Assembly (NCBI RefSeq): GCF_036321535.1 | Contig: NC_087436.1 | Location: 37,140,001-37,204,000, forward strand | From: Camelus dromedarius | Lineage: Eukaryota | DNA: 64,000 nt | Reading direction: 5' to 3' | In this document: piece after piece, positions 5,374 to 16,188 of the stretch | Layout of the letters: every line of letters begins with the position of its first letter | Position numbering within the stretch: the stretch's first letter is position 1 | Notes under the pieces: generated by a model | What the model was told of the DNA's origin: nothing | The model's input: only the letters and a program-made list of their open reading frames with translations | Databases searched by the model: none | Program-made: the position numbers and the translations under genes

Positions 5374-7314
5374 AAGATTAACAAATTATATAAACAGTTT
5401 GACCAAGCAATCTACCTACATGTTTGATTTTATGGATGATTTGTCACTAAATATAAATCTGTGCTTTAATTTAGCATGTTGCTGTATTAACATATTTGAT
5501 CATCTGTTGTGTAAATATTTGTCATGAATTTTTTAATGAATTTAGAAATGAATATCTGGTGGTCATTATCACTATATTTGTATACTTATTTTTGCCTTTA
5601 TAGGTTTTATGTATATGAATTGCAACTAACCAATAGGAATATTGTGGAAAAACAATTTTATTTTTTTATAACTCATCTTAATTTCAATCTTTCAATCTTC
5701 AATCATTTTACTTGGGAAAGTAAATGTTTGGTTGACAATATTTTACCTCAGTATTTTGTTTATGCCATGAGCCTTTTGAATTTTCCTAAAGACCCTGAAC
5801 TTTTGAAACTGAAAATCCAGGCAGAGTTTGCTTTCTGTTGTCCGATGCATTCCCTGAAGCAATGATAACAGAGTCTTAGTCAATTTGGGGATTTCTCTAG
5901 GATTGTGTTTAAGTAACGAGAGACTTACATAGTACCACAGCATCAGGATAGGAGGGATCGCAGTGTCATCTGTCCACGATGTATCTACCCATATGGGCAC
6001 CACCTATCTCCTCATTCACTAGTCCAGTCTGGCATATCTTGACCTTCATTCTTATTTACAAGGCCCCTTTAGATCCACTGATTTTCTCTGTTTACCTTGT
6101 TTTCATCCTTGAATGCAAAGGAAACTTTCCAGTGCTCTGGAGCTATTCCAGTGGGATGAGCTGATCCCACCTGCCCAGACACACTATTTTTTCTACACAG
6201 CTTTGCTGCCTCCTTAGAGAAGGGCTCTGATTCTCTTTTGGATCAATCCTCCAGTTTTAGGGGAGAGGTAGAGGTATGTTTCACAATGCTTTGCCCCAGT
6301 ATTTTGTTTATGCCATGAGCCCTTTGAATTTTCCTAAAGGTATAAACTTTTGAAACTCAAAATCTAGACAGAGTTTGCTTTCTGTTGTCCCATGCATTCA
6401 CTGAAGCAGCAATAACAGACTAGCCTAGCTGAAAAGAGGAAAATGAAATACCGGAGAGAAAAACAAAGCAAAACCTTGGTTACTATTTCAAAAAAAATTA
6501 CTGTGCTACATGTGTATCCATTCAACAAACCCTTACTTTCTTATTGAGCTCCTAATGTATGCCAGGCAATACACCAGGCTGTCATGATGAATGAGATGCA
6601 GTCTTTGCCTCAGCCACCTCCCAACTGAACAGGGAACACACACAGACAAGAGAGAGGCAGTTTCAAGCCTTCTGGTTAAAATAGGGCACAGTAAATATGA
6701 GTGTTTACTCACTCTCCCTCCCAAAATTACATAAAAGTGACAGTAAGTGGTTTTTTTTAAGCCAGAAACTTATAAAGGCAGAAAATGAGATATTTATAAG
6801 TAGAGGACATGGAAGCAACAGAACATTGGAAACTGGAAAGCAGATGGACTGGTGGCAAAACTGAATTAACACCTGAAACCAAAGCTGGCAGTAAGGAAAG
6901 CTGAGAAAAGGGCTGATCGGACCTACAGGATCTCAGAAATATTTAGAAATATTAGAATAGGGGTGCAGGTGTGCTGACAATGGGAGGATTAATTGCAAGT
7001 TTGTCAAAGAAATGAATTGGCAGCCAAAGTTTTACTTTCCTGGTGAGACTGTGGTTGAATTCTCTGTGGGAAGCTCGCTGAAATCAAAAACAAAGGAACA
7101 AACAAGAAACAACGAAAGAGCCCAGTCAGCTCACCCTACGGGGATGTGTACCAGTCTGTTCCAGTCAGTTCTTTTTTCCTGCTTAATTTTAAATATGAGC
7201 AGACAACTGGGAATTACCAGTTGTTTAAGAAAAGCCTCTGCCATGACAGAATCAAATCAAACAACCACTTGAGGAAAATAGAAACTACATATGAAATGCA
7301 AGAAAACTTAAAAC

Positions 7315-7379: not shown

Positions 7380-8051
7380 AAGAGATACAGCATTTGGGAA
7401 GCAATGGGAGAAGGCTATAGAATGAAACTATTCAGAGAGCAAAAGATTGTTCTTTGAAGTTAAAAATAATAGAAAATTTCAGAAGAGAGTTTCGAAGTTA
7501 AATTTGAGGAATCTTTCAGAATGGCAATCAAAAATAAGGTAATGGAAAATGGAAAAGAAATGGAAAATATTAGATTTCAGGAGGCGCAAAACTCTAATAA
7601 GCCAGGAGTTCCAGAAAGAGAGAATACAAAAACACAGGGTAGGATTTTTGAAGAAATAATGAGAGTTTCCTGAACAGAGGGACGTGAGTTTGTGGATTAA
7701 GAGGCCTCACTTAGCACCCTACACAATGCACACAAAGACAAAAACCTACACTAAGGCAAGCTGTTGTGAAATTTCAGAACCTCGGAGATAAGAAAAGGTC
7801 CTACAAACTCCCAAAGTTAAAAACATACAGAAGATCCAGAATCTGAAAGGTATCAGACTCCTTCCTTGCCTCATGGAAGACAATCAATGGAGCGATCCCT
7901 TCAAAACACAGACGGACGGTTATTTCAAATCTTGATTTCTGTTCTCTGTCAAATTTTCTAACAAGTGTGAAGGCAGATTAAAGACATTTTAGACATACAA
8001 GGTTTAAAATTTTACCTCCTTTTCAGGAAAATACTAGAGAGTGGGTTCTAC
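7380..8051 (+). mobile_element. Old L1/HAL1-like ORF1 relic, interrupted by the provirus (continues from 16104 to about 16190)
   Basis: A-rich decayed ORF1-like text (ggagttccagaaagagagaa, gtgaaatttcagaac). Joining the two flanks gives a continuous L1M/HAL1-like phrase (...caggaaaatactagagagtgggttctac|aaaataaggaaataaaccaagaagacataggatccag). Confidence 0.55.
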
Positions 8052-8594
8052 TGAGGCGGGAAGCCCCGTAAAAAGACCAGCAGGACCCCTGGGCAGGGCC
8101 ACTGCTCTCCTCCTGGCACCGCCTGGTTCCCTGGCCCAGAAGCTCTATCTCACTTTTTGCCTCTAAAGCGGCTAACTTACATCTAGAAGTCTATTGGTTC
8201 CCTGAGCTCACTTCTGATTGGTTATTTCCTTCACTCCTGATTGGTTATTACTCTCACTTCTTATTGGTCCACTTCCCTAACTTCTGATTGGTCCATTTGT
8301 AGTAACTTCATTTGCATGGAGCTCACTCCTGATTGGTCTATTTCTACAAAGCTTGTTCCTGGTTGGTCAACTTCTGTTGTACTTTATTTGCATATGATGT
8401 TGCAAAGTGTAAAACTGGCAGCCTATAAAAGGCCTGTGTAACCCTACAGACAGGGTCCGGAGCTTGAAGTGTTGACTCCTCTGTGCCTGCTGGTGTAATA
8501 AACCTGAGTTCTCCAATTCTCAGAGTGCTACTTGGTCTCCCGCCTGGGTCCAAGTTGCTGTCACAGCTGAGCTGTAACACATATTTCCACAACA
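8052..8594 (+). repeat. 5' LTR (543 bp)
   Basis: TGAGGCGGG...CACAACA; six ATTGG boxes; ATTTGCAT at 8310 and 8386; TATAAAA 8424-8430; AATAAA 8497-8502; direct repeat of 15623-16103. Confidence 0.96.
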
Positions 8595-8598
8595 TTTC

Positions 8599-8616
8599 TG
8601 GAGGCCCCAGTGAGAT
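8599..8616 (+). promoter_or_regulatory. Primer binding site, tRNA-Thr type
   Basis: TGGAGGCCCCAGTGAGAT just after the 5' LTR is complementary to the recalled 3' end of a mammalian tRNA-Thr (...TCTCGCTGGGGCCTCCA), with a C>T mismatch at a CpG. Confidence 0.8.
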
Positions 8617-9882
8617 TCCATCCACGCCAGCCCCTTGAGCTATCAGGACGGTGGAGCGACCACCTGGAGGTCAGGAGCTCTGAAAGTGAACGAGAAGGTG
8701 CGCCACCTGACAATATTCCGGGTCTTTCTTCGCGGAGGTGATTCAGGCCTCCAGGCAGCTGTGCTCCAACCGGACTCAGTGGAGGGATGGACCAACTCAC
8801 CAGGCAATACGGCCGAATAAGGTAGGAGTCCTGAGAAGCGTCCATAGTTAGTTTAGGGTAATCAGGTTCTGCCCAAGTGGACAGAAGAGAAGACTGATCA
8901 CCTTCTTCAGGCTCTCTGCCTGACGGTAATCCGGATGGGGAGATCAGGTTATGCTCCCCGCCAGACAGTAGTCCGACGGGGAGATCTGGTTAGATTAGGT
9001 TAGATAAGGGGTGCCCCAGTGATAGGGAGGGAATGTGCAAATTATCTCTGTGTGTTTGTGTGTGTGTCCTGAAAAGCGTGCGATCAGGTTTGAGTTTGTA
9101 GCTCCACGGCATTCTGCTATGGAGTTTGAGTGAGTCCCAACCTGCGGTTCCGTGGTGACCTCATACGGCTCATGGCGGTATCGGCCCCTCGGGGTACCAA
9201 TCGGAGTCAGCGGTTTATGCTGACCCACCAAAGCTAAGAGGCACCTTCCTCCCCGCGAGGGGAGCGGCCAGGTGGACACAGCAAAAACCCTCCCTTTGTC
9301 TTGTTTGCGACACCGGCACAGGGTGGCTACACGGGGAGGGAAAGGGACATAGAACAGCCTATAAGTAAACGACCCCTGTGCCCTTAGGGACTAAGATGAG
9401 ACTACATTAAAGAGTTTCAGACACGACCTTGTCACTAGTACCCCGGAATATCCTGGCACAATTAATAAACTAGCCTCAATACTACTTTTCTGTCTATAAT
9501 TACAACCACAAGACCTAAGCCAGTGGGAACCACCCCAGGACTGTCCGGGATCCTCTTTTAAGGTCCCCTTGTGGTCCATTTATCCTACCACTGGCCGGCC
9601 ATCCCAGCCTTACATTTTGTTGAATCAGACTATAAAAAGACTACACAGGGACCCCCTGAAGCTTGTCCAGGCCCGGAAGAGCATCAGGGACAGCTCCCTA
9701 ACGTGAAACCCTAACTCATTGGCAGGACTTGCAGCCAAACGGGAAAATATTAGGCCCAGTGAGGCAGCAGGCTTTTTGAGAACTCCACTGTTTTTGAGGA
9801 GTGAAAAACAGGTACTGGGGTCACAGCCTACAGTGCCAGAAGCAGACCCATGCCTATTGGCCACAAAATCTGTCAATCAATA

Positions 9883-11451
9883 ATGGGAGCCTCAAAATCA
9901 AAGCCGACAGTTCTGGACTGCATGATTAAAAATTTCAAAAAGGGTTCCTCAGGAGACCATGGGATTAAATTGTCACCAGGAAAATTGTGCACATTGTGCG
10001 AGTTAGAATGGCCCACCTTTGGAGTGGGATGGCCCTCAGAAGGCACACTTGACTTGCCAACTATCCGGGCCAGGTACAGAATGATTACTGGGACCCCAGG
10101 GCGCCCCAACCAATTCCCATATATTGACTCCTGGCTAACAATTGCCCAAACCTTGCCCTCATGTATCCGGTTCTGCACAAATGGTAAGGGGCAATGTCAG
10201 ATCCTCACGGCCCAGACAGTGAAAATAAAAAAAGAAGGTGCAACAAAGCCAATTCTACAGGGGGACCCTGAAAAAGAGCCAATAATGCCCCCGCCATATA
10301 TTCTTTCTTCTACGGTGCCACCACAACCGTCTCTATCTGATAGCCCACCTCCACCTGTGTCCCCACCGCCACAACCCCAGACTCCAAGCCAGGAACCCAT
10401 AGGGAGGAGACTCCGTTCAGCCCAAAAAACCAGCCAGCCAGCGACTGCCCTCCAGATGCCTCTCTGGGAAACCCAAGGGCCCCAACTCATTAACAATGAT
10501 GGCTCCGGACACTCCATCCTGTACTACCAACCTTTCAGTACAACAGACCTCCTAAACTGGCAACACCACACTCCTCCATATTCAGAAAAACCCCAGGCCA
10601 TGATTGACCTCGTAGAGTCTATCTTCCAGACCCACCAGCCAACTTGGGACGACATCTGTCAGCTGCTCTTCAATACTGAAGAAAGAAAGCGTATCCTGAC
10701 AGAAACAAAAAAATGGCTACAAGAGCAAGCTCCAGAGAGAACCATGGGTGCAGAAGGGTGGGCCCAAAATGCAGCCCCAGAAAAAAGGCCAAACTGGGAT
10801 TTTAACACCCAAGATGGACAAGAGACTCTGCGGACATATCGGAGAGCTCTCCTGCATGGGTTGCGAGCTGGGGCAAAGAAACCAACATGTTTAAGACCAC
10901 CACAGTGATCCAAAAGCCAGACGAGTACCCCATGGACTTCTATGAGAGGCTATGCGAAGCTTTTCGGATCTATACCCAATTTGACCCCAAAGCCCCTGAA
11001 AACCAGCAGATGGTCAGTGCTGCTTTTGTGGCCCAATCCTACGCCGACATCCGCCGAAAACTTCAAAAACTGGAAGGTTTTGCTGGAATGAATTCCACTC
11101 AACTGCTGGAGGTGGCCAACAAAGTCTTCATAAACCAAGACCACGAAGCCTGACAAGAAGCAGACAGATGAACAAAACAGAAAGCATCCCTGCTGGCAGC
11201 AGCACTAGGGAACTCTTACCCAAACCAGCATCCCACCTCAACGTGGAAAGGGGGGACCCGTGCGGGGCCCTCCCTGAGGCAAGACCAATATGCATACTGT
11301 AAGAAGGTTGGTCACTGGAAAAATGAAAGTCCTAATCGTGGAGAAACAAAAAACTTACCAAAGAGAAAAACCTCCAGCCAGCAAAGAAAAGTACCAACCC
11401 GAGTCTCCTCCGAGGAGTCTCATCGGATTGGCAGGGCTGGACTCAGACTAG
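9883..11451 (+). pseudogene. gag: ERV gag (MA-p12-CA-NC), frameshifted with premature stops
   Basis: MGASKS myristoylation-type start; WPTFGVGWPSEGT; PPPY late domain; YQPFSTTDLLNW; MHR (IQKPDEYPMDFYERLCEAFRIY); degenerate zinc knuckle YAYCKKVGHWKNES; frameshift near 10885; TGA at 11151 and 11169; terminal TAG at 11449. Confidence 0.93.
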
Positions 11452-14400: not shown

Positions 14401-15102
14401 ATAATACAAGTGGCAGAAGCGCTACACATCCACTGGAATCTACATGAAGCCTACAGGCCCCAGAGCTCAGGGAAAGTAGAGCACATGAACTGAACCCTAA
14501 AGCAAGTTATGGCAAAACTCAGTCAGGAAACTCAGCTACCTTGGACTGACATTCTGTCCCTGGCTCTTCTGTGGGTACACTGTGCCCCTCGATCCAAGAT
14601 AGGATTCTCCCCTTTTGAAATCCTGTATGGGAGACCCCCTCCTTTAATTAGACTAGGGGAAAGTATTAAGGAAGTGGGAAGCTTAGAACTTCATAAACAA
14701 ATACAGGGCCTTGGAAAGACTATGCGAGAAATCCATAGGTGGGTAACTGACAGAATCCCAGTTTCACTGGGAACAATGTTACACCCATATGAACCTGGGG
14801 ACCAAGTCTTGGTGAAAGATTGGAAAAGGGATCCCCTCAAACTCACTTGGAAGGGCCCCTACCCAGTTATATTAACCACCCCAACAGCTCTAAAAGTTGC
14901 AGATATCACCCCGTGGATTTATCACACCAGAGTAAAGAGAGCAACACCACCACGAGACGAGGACATCTGGAGAGTCGCCCAGGTTCCCGGAGAGCCTCTT
15001 AAAATCAGGATTCAGAAACGCCCACCTCACCTACCGGAGAGCACCAAGCCTTGCTCTAGCCACACCCGGAAGCTGGCTAGTCAACGCACGGTGGAAGCCT
15101 GA
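11452..15102 (+). pseudogene. pol: ERV pro-pol (protease, RT, RNase H, integrase), disrupted
   Basis: Protease FMVDTGAE; RT DYRPVQDLR, LDLKDAFF, LPQGFKNSP and YVDN (12475-12486); RNase H FTDRSS and YTDSKYAF; integrase EVDFTE, GSENGPAF, YRPQSSGKVE and WKGPYPV; several stops and frameshifts. Confidence 0.95.
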
Positions 15103-15560
15103 GGAACCACCAGTCAAGACGTAAAAAGAACTGCTGCCCTTTCTTTATTTTATTGAGCATTGTTACTTTATTACTAGTTATAGGACTGATAGCCACTGCA
15201 CCCCAGGATTGGAACATAGACCAGAAACTAATACCAGCTGTACTCTATCCGTCTACAATAGAAAGCCTAATGGTCAGTGTCTGCTATAGGAACTGTACCC
15301 CTGAAAGCCCATAATTGATCAAAAAGGGCCACCCAATTAATACCACTACTCATTGGGCTAGGGTTAGCAACTGGAGTTGGGCCTCCTGGCTCCTCCCCCT
15401 AGCAGGCCCCCTCCTTATGATCCTTCTAGCACTGCTGTTTGGTCCCTGCATCCTTAATCTCATTACCCATTTCAGTAGCTTACAAATAGTGTCACTATGA
15501 CTACAGCTACTAATTACTCAGTACAGGCCCCTGGACCAGGTAGAACCCAATGAAGAATAA
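15084..15560 (+). pseudogene. env: env remnant: signal-peptide-like segment joined in frame to TM anchor and cytoplasmic tail; most of SU/TM missing
   Basis: Hydrophobic FFILLSIVTLLLVIGLIATA (15141-15200); WLLPLAGPLLMILLALLFGPCILN anchor; tail ..LQLLITQYRPL..; internal stops at 15312 and 15498. Confidence 0.8.
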
Positions 15561-15610
15561 GGGACACCACTCTAAGGTTGATGCTCACTACAGATGTTAG
15601 AGAGAGCATC

Positions 15611-15622
15611 AAAAGGGGGGAA
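15611..15622 (+). promoter_or_regulatory. Polypurine tract
   Basis: AAAAGGGGGGAA directly abutting the TG of the 3' LTR. Confidence 0.92.
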
Positions 15623-16103
15623 TGAGGCGGGAAGCCCCATAAAAAGACCAGCAGGACCCCTGGGCAGGGCCGCTGCTCTCCTCCTGGCACCACCCAGTTC
15701 CCTGGCCCAGAAGCTCTATCTCACTTTTTGCCTCTAAAGCGGCTAACTTACATCTAGAATTCTATTGGTTCCCTGAGCTCACTTCTGATTGGTCCATTTG
15801 TAGTAACTTCATTTGCATGGAGCTCACTCCTGATTGGTCTATTTCTACAAAGCTTGTTCCTGGTTGGTCAACTTCTGTTGTACTTTATTTGCATATGATG
15901 TTGCAAACTGTAAAACTGGCAGCCTATAAAAGTCCTGTGTAAACCTACAGAGTCTGGAGCTTGAAATGTTAACTCCTTTGTGCCTGCTGGCGTAATAAAC
16001 CTAGTTCTCCAACTCTCCGAGTGCTGCTTGGTCTCTCGCCTGGATCCAGGTTGCTGTCACAACTGAGCTGTAACACTGAGCTGTAACACATTTTTCCGCA
16101 ACA
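15623..16103 (+). repeat. 3' LTR (481 bp)
   Basis: Begins immediately after the PPT; homologous to the 5' LTR; followed by TSD CTAC. Confidence 0.96.
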
Positions 16104-16188
16104 CTACAAAATAAGGAAATAAACCAAGAAGACATAGGATCCAGTCAAAAGGACCTAAAAACAGGAGTGAGGCAAAAGGATGCCCAGG

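What the first reader, a model, noticed from the sequence alone, without database searches (positions are those of the whole stretch)
9395..9885. Hidden decayed 'pre-gag' ORF in the ERV leader, ending in a TAATG stop/start overlap with gag
Seen: the PBS-to-gag leader is about 1.27 kb, long for a gamma-like virus. The frame 9395-9883 runs 163 codons with only two internal stops (TAA 9497, TGA 9704), each one C>T change from a sense codon, like the stops in gag/pol. It reads DETTLKSFRHDLVTSTPEYPGTINKLASILLFCL*LQPQDLSQWEPPQDCPGSSFKVPLWSIYPTTGRPSQPYILLNQTIKRLHRDPLKLVQARKSIRDSSLT*NPNSLAGLAAKRENIRPSEAAGFLRTPLFLRSEKQVLGSQPTVPEADPCLLATKSVNQ*. Its stop TAA (9881-9883) shares a base with the gag ATG (9883-9885). 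The ORF track missed it. Known: TAATG overlaps mark termination-reinitiation coupling in several RNA viruses, and a leader pre-gag ORF has been described for HERV-T, which also uses a Thr PBS. Inference: the ancestral virus encoded an accessory protein upstream of Gag, out of frame and possibly translationally coupled, distinct from MLV glyco-Gag. No start codon can be identified.
Basis: partly seen in the sequence, partly recalled or inferred. Interest (0 to 1): 0.72.

Follow-up and report, generated by a model that had tools for sequence, protein, structure and literature searches.

The report
Decayed retroviral gene upstream of gag
An old retrovirus in this mammal's genome really did carry an extra protein gene in front of its main structural gene, but here it is a broken remnant, and the reading frame and stop/start overlap first spotted are not the real ones.

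Summary
The 163-codon frame with two internal stops and the TAATG junction are in the sequence, but alone they are close to chance. Across 84 copies of this class I provirus family in the same genome, the frame as read shows no codon-level constraint (net pN/pS 0.91-1.12). It is a mosaic across frameshifts, in register with the true gene for only 55 of 142 comparable codons.

A real pre-gag gene of about 165 codons does lie under it. In its own register, lineages diverged under purifying selection (0.33-0.59; other frames mostly 0.9-2; gag 0.16-0.25 on the deep branches). It probably starts at a weak-context AUG (homolog of 9361) and stops 13-19 nt before gag. TAATG is a lineage-specific AAT repeat, absent from 34 of 34 copies of the other major clade. 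The gene was already dead when the window's lineage spread.

The protein has no database homolog, no transmembrane segment, and a BC-box-like motif (a lead only). Leaky scanning or reinitiation after a 4-codon mini-ORF is the likeliest route to Gag. Pre-gag ORFs are known in primate ERVs; this looks like a new non-primate member with direct selection evidence.

The parts
8052..8594 (+). 5' LTR; target-site duplication CTAC at 8048-8051 and 16104-16107
   Evidence: LTR-LTR K2P 0.053 over 469 aligned sites
8599..8616 (+). Primer-binding site for tRNA-Thr(TGT), one mismatch in this copy
8822..8823 (+). Candidate major splice donor (GT)
   Evidence: GT in 72 of 84 copies; contigs of one RNA run leave the leader at the homologous place of L060; partner not identified
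9100..9350 (+). Most conserved non-coding leader block, packaging-signal-like (inferred)
   Evidence: between-lineage identity 0.74-0.82 against 0.63-0.69 in the pre-gag segment
9320..9321 (+). Candidate splice acceptor after a pyrimidine tract; use not shown
   Evidence: YAG in 75 of 84 copies but no more conserved than neighbouring AGs; no joint in 4 RNA runs
9361..9866 (+). Broken remnant of the family pre-gag gene (about 165 codons). Frame breaks in this copy near 9410, 9490, 9570, 9650, 9750, 9800 and 9810; no ATG at the homologous start codon, no stop at the homologous end codon
9396..9410 (+). Four-codon mini-ORF (ATG, three codons, stop) nested in the start of the gene
   Evidence: ATG in 59, stop at codon 5 in 75, both in 54 of 84 copies
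9488..9566 (+).
   Evidence: net pN/pS 0.45 (0.28-0.68) in this register, 1.35 and 1.39 in the others
9647..9737 (+). Second in-register block; holds the start of a BC-box-like motif at about 9716
   Evidence: net pN/pS 0.65 (0.48-0.89), 1.18 and 1.55 in the others; motif counts
9881..9885 (+). TAATG junction: last unit of an AAT micro-repeat in lineages A-D, not the stop of the gene
9883..10908 (+). gag, first open stretch (MA and CA domains); strong start context
   Evidence: Pfam Gag_MA 1e-11, Gag_p30 3e-29; purine at -3 in 79 of 80 copies with the ATG
15623..16103 (+). 3' LTR

Best explanation
The stretch is the decayed remnant of a genuine accessory gene of about 165 codons that an ancestral gamma-like (class I) retrovirus carried between its packaging region and gag. 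SHOWN: the gene was under purifying selection on the deep branches between lineages, and was already broken in the common ancestor of groups A, B and C, to which the window copy belongs. INFERRED (about 0.5): the gene was read from a weak-context AUG. Most ribosomes bypassed it by leaky scanning, or translated the nested 4-codon mini-ORF and resumed scanning through an AUG-poor stretch to the strong gag AUG. The gene's own stop lies 13-19 nt before gag, with no overlap. INFERRED, weak (about 0.25): the product was a soluble, mainly helical intracellular protein that bound Elongin B/C through a BC-box, that is a ubiquitin-ligase adaptor in the manner of Vif or adenovirus E4orf6. It was dispensable for germ-line copying, since three lineages spread after losing it.
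For: Net pN/pS in the register of natural copy L075: F-E2 0.33, F-D23 0.46, F-ABC 0.56, E2-D23 0.51, D1-D23 0.40, D23-ABC 0.59; third positions exceed second (P 0.0005 for the first four). The two other frames give 0.83-1.95, with one exception at 0.49. Groups found by DNA search only give the same: E-D23 0.50, E-ABC 0.58. The two 5' blocks, where the protein query was out of register, still show the signal in the family register (0.54 and 0.45), which argues against search bias. Gag control 0.16-0.25 on deep branches. A, B and C are neutral among themselves (1.03-2.00) and share breaks near 9410, 9490, 9750 and 9810, while F shares none. The ATG at the 9361 homolog never has a purine at -3 or G at +4 (0 of 59), while the gag ATG has a purine at -3 in 79 of 80. 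ATG is under-represented in the segment (observed/expected 0.25-0.79; 0.71-1.08 in gag). A 4-codon uORF with proposed reinitiation on gag is described for MuLV (PMC5778647). A BC-box pattern occurs in 53 of 84 copies (consensus from PMC3355856).
Against: No copy examined is fully intact in the family register (L075 has 3 stops; F copies average 3.7). The 9361 ATG is in register with the constrained frame in only 32 of 59 copies, including 3 of 7 F and 0 of 22 E1. The first block (9373-9406) has the weakest signal (0.68, interval 0.37-1.61). Constraint is weaker than in gag. E2-E1 (0.84) and D1-ABC (0.55, interval to 1.09) are not significant. ATG depletion is strongest in the lineages where the gene is dead and mild in F and E2 (rank 11 of 64), and D23 shares five internal ATGs. 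Shared start contexts may reflect descent. The unspliced leader holds 5-8 further ATGs per copy upstream and no splice removing them was seen. The BC-box pattern arises in 8.9% of shuffles and is absent from D1 (0 of 2). The fold is uninformative (pLDDT 41.5). The statistics are pairwise, uncorrected for multiple hits, and copies are related.
Confidence: 0.8

Rival explanations
1. One reading: the frame 9395-9883 itself is the ancestral gene and is coupled to gag by termination-reinitiation at TAATG.
For: Only 2 internal stops against 9 in each other frame. TAATG is present in 38 of 50 copies of clade A-D.
Against: Net pN/pS 0.91-1.12 along this path. A stop 24 nt upstream in the same frame in 43 of 50 A-D copies. 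TAATG in 0 of 34 F/E2/E1 copies and 2 of 8 D23. In three out-of-register blocks this frame gives 1.57-2.97. No UGGGA motif (recalled calicivirus-type signal) in the 130 nt before gag in group A, 0 of 4.
Confidence: 0.03
2. The region coded an N-terminal extension of Gag (glyco-Gag-like), or one ORF fused to gag, as raised for the HERV30 ORF.
For: Position directly before gag; glyco-Gag is typical of gammaretroviruses (PMC5778647). The fusion idea is raised in bioRxiv 2022.11.04.515135.
Against: A stop ends the constrained frame in 55 of 57 F and A-D copies and in 4 of 4 E2 copies. The spacing to gag is 13, 14, 16 or 19 nt, never in frame. No hydrophobic anchor: maximum 19-residue hydropathy 0.83-1.18 in 5 copies.
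Confidence: 0.04
3. The segment is a captured piece of another gene (pol or host) whose coding signature predates capture, like the HERVIP10 pol piece in the HERV-W leader.
For: The segment is less conserved than its flanks, and leader and gag trees disagree, showing recombination. Precedent in PMC6995185.
Against: Constraint acts on several branches inside the family (F-E2 0.33, D1-D23 0.40), so after any capture. No Pfam, PDB or protein hit. Own-genome hits that were fetched all lie before gag (20 of 20).
Confidence: 0.07
4. No gene: the periodicity comes from RNA structure, composition or alignment.
For: Close subgroups show no constraint. Leaders carry structured RNA.
Against: Alignments were nucleotide-based and blind to frame. 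The low ratio follows one register through 7 blocks and rises above 1 in most others. That register has about 2-4 stops per copy against 4-13 in the others.
Confidence: 0.05

Closest known systems
HERV-T 5' pre-gag ORF (PMC5388530; passages read)
   Same: Class I ERV with an extra ORF of unknown function 5' to gag; Thr PBS (the HERV-T primer type is recalled).
   Different: Sequence homology untested: the ORF is in a figure supplement that is not held. Here the evidence is codon-level selection across lineages in a non-primate genome.
HERV30/HERV17/HERV9 pre-gag ORF homologous to molluscum contagiosum MC132 (bioRxiv 10.1101/2022.11.04.515135; whole text read)
   Same: Separate ORF upstream of gag; lineages that spread after its frame broke; the same puzzle of how gag is then translated.
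   Different: 879 bp there against about 500 bp here. That paper found no hits in the non-primates it tried. No comparison was run here; none is evident by eye.
HERV-V pre-gagV1 (seen only as cited in PMC12679747; primary paper not held)
   Same: Predicted coding ORF upstream of gag.
   Different: Reported beside a host-co-opted gag; here no sign of host co-option (within-group ratios 0.77-0.97).
ERV-W and HERV-H pre-gag regions (PMC6995185; passages and section 11 read)
   Same: Long leader with a putative ORF and splice signals.
   Different: There the whole pre-gag region can be spliced out and partly derives from pol; here no such splice or pol origin was found.
MLV glyco-Gag (PMC5778647; passages read)
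   Same: Leader-encoded accessory function; short uORFs with proposed reinitiation on gag.
   Different: Glyco-Gag is in frame with gag, CUG-initiated and membrane-targeted; this gene is separate, AUG-initiated (inferred) and has no hydrophobic anchor.
Viral BC-box adaptors, Vif and E4orf6 (PMC3355856; passages read)
   Same: One match to the BC-box pattern.
   Different: No sequence homology found, no tested binding, no established cullin box.

Membership tests
Class I (gamma-like) ERV | Gamma-type Gag MA/CA and integrase C-terminal domain, paired LTRs, 4-bp target duplication | tested here: met
Class I ERV pre-gag accessory ORF | Separate coding frame between PBS and gag | tested here: met
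   purifying selection in one register with a terminal stop before gag
Class I ERV pre-gag accessory ORF | Translated from its own start codon | tested here: inconclusive
   ATG in 59 of 84 copies, in register in 32 of 59; no translation data
HERV-T-like pre-gag ORF | tRNA-Thr PBS | tested here: met
HERV-T-like pre-gag ORF | Protein homology to the HERV-T ORF; RT grouping with HERV-T | not testable with these tools
   sequence not held; no ERV reference library
MC132-like ERV protein | Homology to MC132 or the HERV30 ORF | tested here: inconclusive
   no hit in protein searches; direct comparison not run
Glyco-Gag | In frame with gag, no intervening stop | tested here: not met
Glyco-Gag | Signal-anchor hydrophobic segment | tested here: not met
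   maximum hydropathy 0.83-1.18
Termination-reinitiation coupling at a TAATG overlap | Upstream gene's stop overlaps the downstream AUG, conserved | tested here: not met
Termination-reinitiation coupling at a TAATG overlap | UGGGA motif upstream of the junction (recalled) | tested here: inconclusive
   absent in group A (0 of 4); present at varying places in 54 of 84 copies, partly explained by Trp-Glu codons, mostly paired in folds
BC-box ubiquitin-ligase adaptor | (S,T,P)Lxxx(C,S,A)xxx-hydrophobic motif | tested here: inconclusive
   53 of 84 copies with a slightly stricter pattern; 8.9% by chance
BC-box ubiquitin-ligase adaptor | Binding to Elongin B/C and a cullin | not testable with these tools
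   no host Elongin sequence available to the complex tool

The most novel reading that the evidence does not exclude
A so far undescribed family of retroviral accessory proteins, unrelated to the primate pre-gag ORFs, with which a 'simple' gamma-like retrovirus recruited Elongin B/C ligases in a Vif-like way. It sat upstream of gag behind a weak AUG and a mini-ORF that let Gag still be made.
Probability: 0.2. Interest if true: 0.75.

Novelty: new member of a known kind. Interest (0 to 1): 0.46.

Why it matters
Pre-gag ORFs in class I ERVs have mostly been inferred from reconstructed primate sequences, and how gag is translated behind them is called a puzzle in print. Here several lineages in one non-primate genome give direct codon-level evidence that such an ORF was a selected viral gene. 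They show it was lost repeatedly in lineages that went on copying, and they offer natural leader variants to test the translation route. It also shows how a single decayed copy can mislead about frame and stop.

Tried and rejected
Viral-contig scan with gag: no relative. Single-sequence fold pLDDT 41.5, so no fold search was run.

My first reading, a pure chance frame, came from close subgroups only and was overturned by distant lineages. The 151-166-codon open frames of group D are themselves out of register in their first third. Three of the four lie in a cluster on C29 whose copies share flanks (4 of 5 tested), and that cluster is neutral (1.12), so host co-option was rejected.

Spliced pre-gag mRNA: no joint between the candidate donor and acceptor in 4 runs, but raw-read depth over the leader was 0-2, so this is no evidence against. 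Donor partner not found. A link between gene loss and env loss could not be tested; coordinates show that relatives keep more env than the window. Earlier scan notes: none. Literature searches listed no description of this family's ORF; the library lacks most subscription papers.

Full report
OBSERVATION. The stretch lies in a class I provirus: LTRs 8052-8594 and 15623-16103, target duplication CTAC, gag with MA and CA domains, broken pol and a largely deleted env. LTR divergence is 0.053; with a recalled neutral rate of 2-3e-9 per site and year that is roughly 9-13 million years. The PBS matches a host tRNA-Thr(TGT) gene. The 1,266-nt leader is ordinary for class I ERVs (423 to about 2,000 nt in PMC6995185). 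On one sequence the frame is near chance: 807 of 2,000 leader shuffles do as well, and local shuffles give 1% for a given frame and 3% for any.

COPIES. Searches of the own genome (counts are lower bounds) led to 89 leader-bearing loci. Five were left out: L009, L080 and L090 as duplicates, L007 with a truncated gag, L053 without gag. The 84 kept form two clades, A/B/C/D1/D23 (the window is in A) and F/E2/E1. All tests are pairwise on homologous triplets of nucleotide alignments; net divergence is between-group minus within-group.

THE FRAME AS READ IS NOT A GENE. The triplet homologous to 9857 is a stop in 43 of 50 A-D copies, and the stop at 9704 is shared with 3 of 4 A and 7 of 11 C copies. 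Read back from the gag ATG in their own sequence, 28 of the other 29 copies of the first set have 6-13 stops in that frame; the exception has a deleted junction. Net pN/pS along the path is 0.79-1.44 among groups A-D and 0.91-1.12 against F and E2, with flat codon positions. The gag matrix region gives 0.16-0.25 on deep branches. TAATG is the end of an AAT repeat of variable length, present in 38 of 84 copies and in none of 34 F/E2/E1 copies.

A REAL GENE LIES UNDERNEATH. Group E, first seen as non-matching, is a distant homolog (scores 142-260 against shuffle maxima of 65-87) that shares amino-acid motifs with an open frame of group D. A protein search with that natural open frame found lineages F and E2, all 20 fetched loci lying before gag. 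Along the continuous frame of natural copy L075 (165 codons, 3 stops) net pN/pS is 0.33 (F-E2), 0.47 (F-E1), 0.46 (F-D23), 0.43 (F-D1), 0.56 (F-ABC), 0.51 (E2-D23), 0.58 (E2-ABC), 0.40 (D1-D23) and 0.59 (D23-ABC), all with intervals below 1. E2-E1 (0.84) and D1-ABC (0.55) are not significant. The other two frames give 0.83-1.95 except one value of 0.49. Search bias is unlikely: groups found by DNA alone give 0.40-0.59, and the two 5' blocks where the query was out of register show the signal in the family register (0.54, 0.45) and not in the query's (2.18, 1.35).

HISTORY. F copies share no frame break (0-3 private ones each). D23 shares one, E2 one, E1 two. A, B and C share breaks near 9410, 9490, 9750 and 9810 and are neutral among themselves (1.03-2.00). 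So the gene was under selection in replicating ancestors and dead before the window's lineage spread. The window copy has 7 frame breaks, no ATG at the homologous start and no stop at the homologous end. Within-group ratios of 0.77-0.97 give no sign of host co-option.

ENDS AND LIKELY EXPRESSION. An ATG at the homolog of 9361 occurs in 59 of 84 copies, never with a purine at -3 or G at +4. It is in register with the constrained frame in 32 of 59, so the start is likely but not certain. The frame ends in a stop 13 (E), 14 (F), 16 (D) or 19 nt (B, C) before gag. A 4-codon mini-ORF at 9396-9410 is complete in 54 of 84 copies; the gag ATG has a strong context in 79 of 80; ATG is under-represented between them (0.25-0.79 of expectation), though less so in F and E2. 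Leaky scanning, or reinitiation after the mini-ORF as proposed for a 4-codon uORF of MuLV (PMC5778647), is the best inference. The unspliced leader carries 5-8 upstream ATGs per copy, which needs a splice, shunt or internal entry. A donor at 8822 and an acceptor at 9321 are plausible (72 and 75 of 84 copies) but not more conserved than neighbours. In four RNA runs laid on copy L060, contigs of one run leave the leader at the donor, but no joint to the acceptor was seen, at very low raw depth. Reinitiation after the gene's own stop is not excluded.

THE PROTEIN. No homolog in 5.8 billion proteins by word search, 1.8 billion representatives (searched with the partly out-of-register L040 frame), Pfam, PDB sequences or the Atlas. 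These collections hold few decayed mammalian ERV frames, so this is weak evidence of novelty. No transmembrane segment. The low-confidence model is mainly helical. One BC-box-like motif, with S, L, L and A conserved at 0.63-0.82 between clades against a mean of 0.44, is found in 53 of 84 copies, but 8.9% of shuffles have such a match. An Elongin B/C adaptor role is my best guess at about 0.25.

COMPARISON. Pre-gag ORFs are reported for HERV-T (PMC5388530, passages; supplement list seen, files not read, the figure with the ORF not held), HERV-H and ERV-W (PMC6995185, passages and section 11), HERV-V (cited in PMC12679747, passages) and HERV30/17/9, where the protein is homologous to poxvirus MC132 (bioRxiv 10.1101/2022.11.04.515135, whole text; supplements closed). 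PMC9604959 (passages) does not mention such an ORF. This gene works like those in position and fate; membership in any of their protein families is untested. It fails the tests for glyco-Gag and for TAATG coupling.

VERDICT. Observation partly confirmed; interpretation right in kind, wrong in frame, stop and coupling. A new, probably non-primate member of a known kind, with clear selection evidence and an open function. Interest 0.46.

Noticed in passing
window 15100-15622: The window's env is reduced to about 520 nt; relatives such as L002's provirus keep about 1.57 kb between pol end and the polypurine tract. A hydrophobic 77-codon frame at 15081-15314 is probably the env signal-peptide remnant.
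   Followed up: partly
G000 coordinates: Many B and E1 copies have gag start to pol end of 2.1-3.1 kb against 5.2 kb in full-length A, D23 and F copies, so internally deleted non-autonomous lineages spread widely.
   Followed up: no
L038, L040-L043 (G000:C29:2.94-3.19 Mb): Five copies clustered within 250 kb; four share upstream flanks, so they are segmental duplicates of one insertion.
   Followed up: partly
groups C and E, gag versus leader trees: Group C has an A/B-type pre-gag segment but an E-type gag, a recombinant lineage.
   Followed up: partly
L060:360-361 (homolog of window 8822): RNA contigs of run X10 leave the leader at the candidate donor towards a sequence not found exactly in this assembly.
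   Followed up: partly
L060:1-132: Single-cell RNA reads pile on the LTR end with poly(A) tails at about 82-89, so LTRs of the young group give polyadenylated RNA ends.
   Followed up: no
window 8190-8345: The U3 region holds repeated CTGATTGG (CCAAT-box, reverse) units whose number differs between the two LTRs.
   Followed up: no
window 5720-5872 and 6268-6419: A direct repeat with about 548-nt spacing upstream of the provirus.
   Followed up: no
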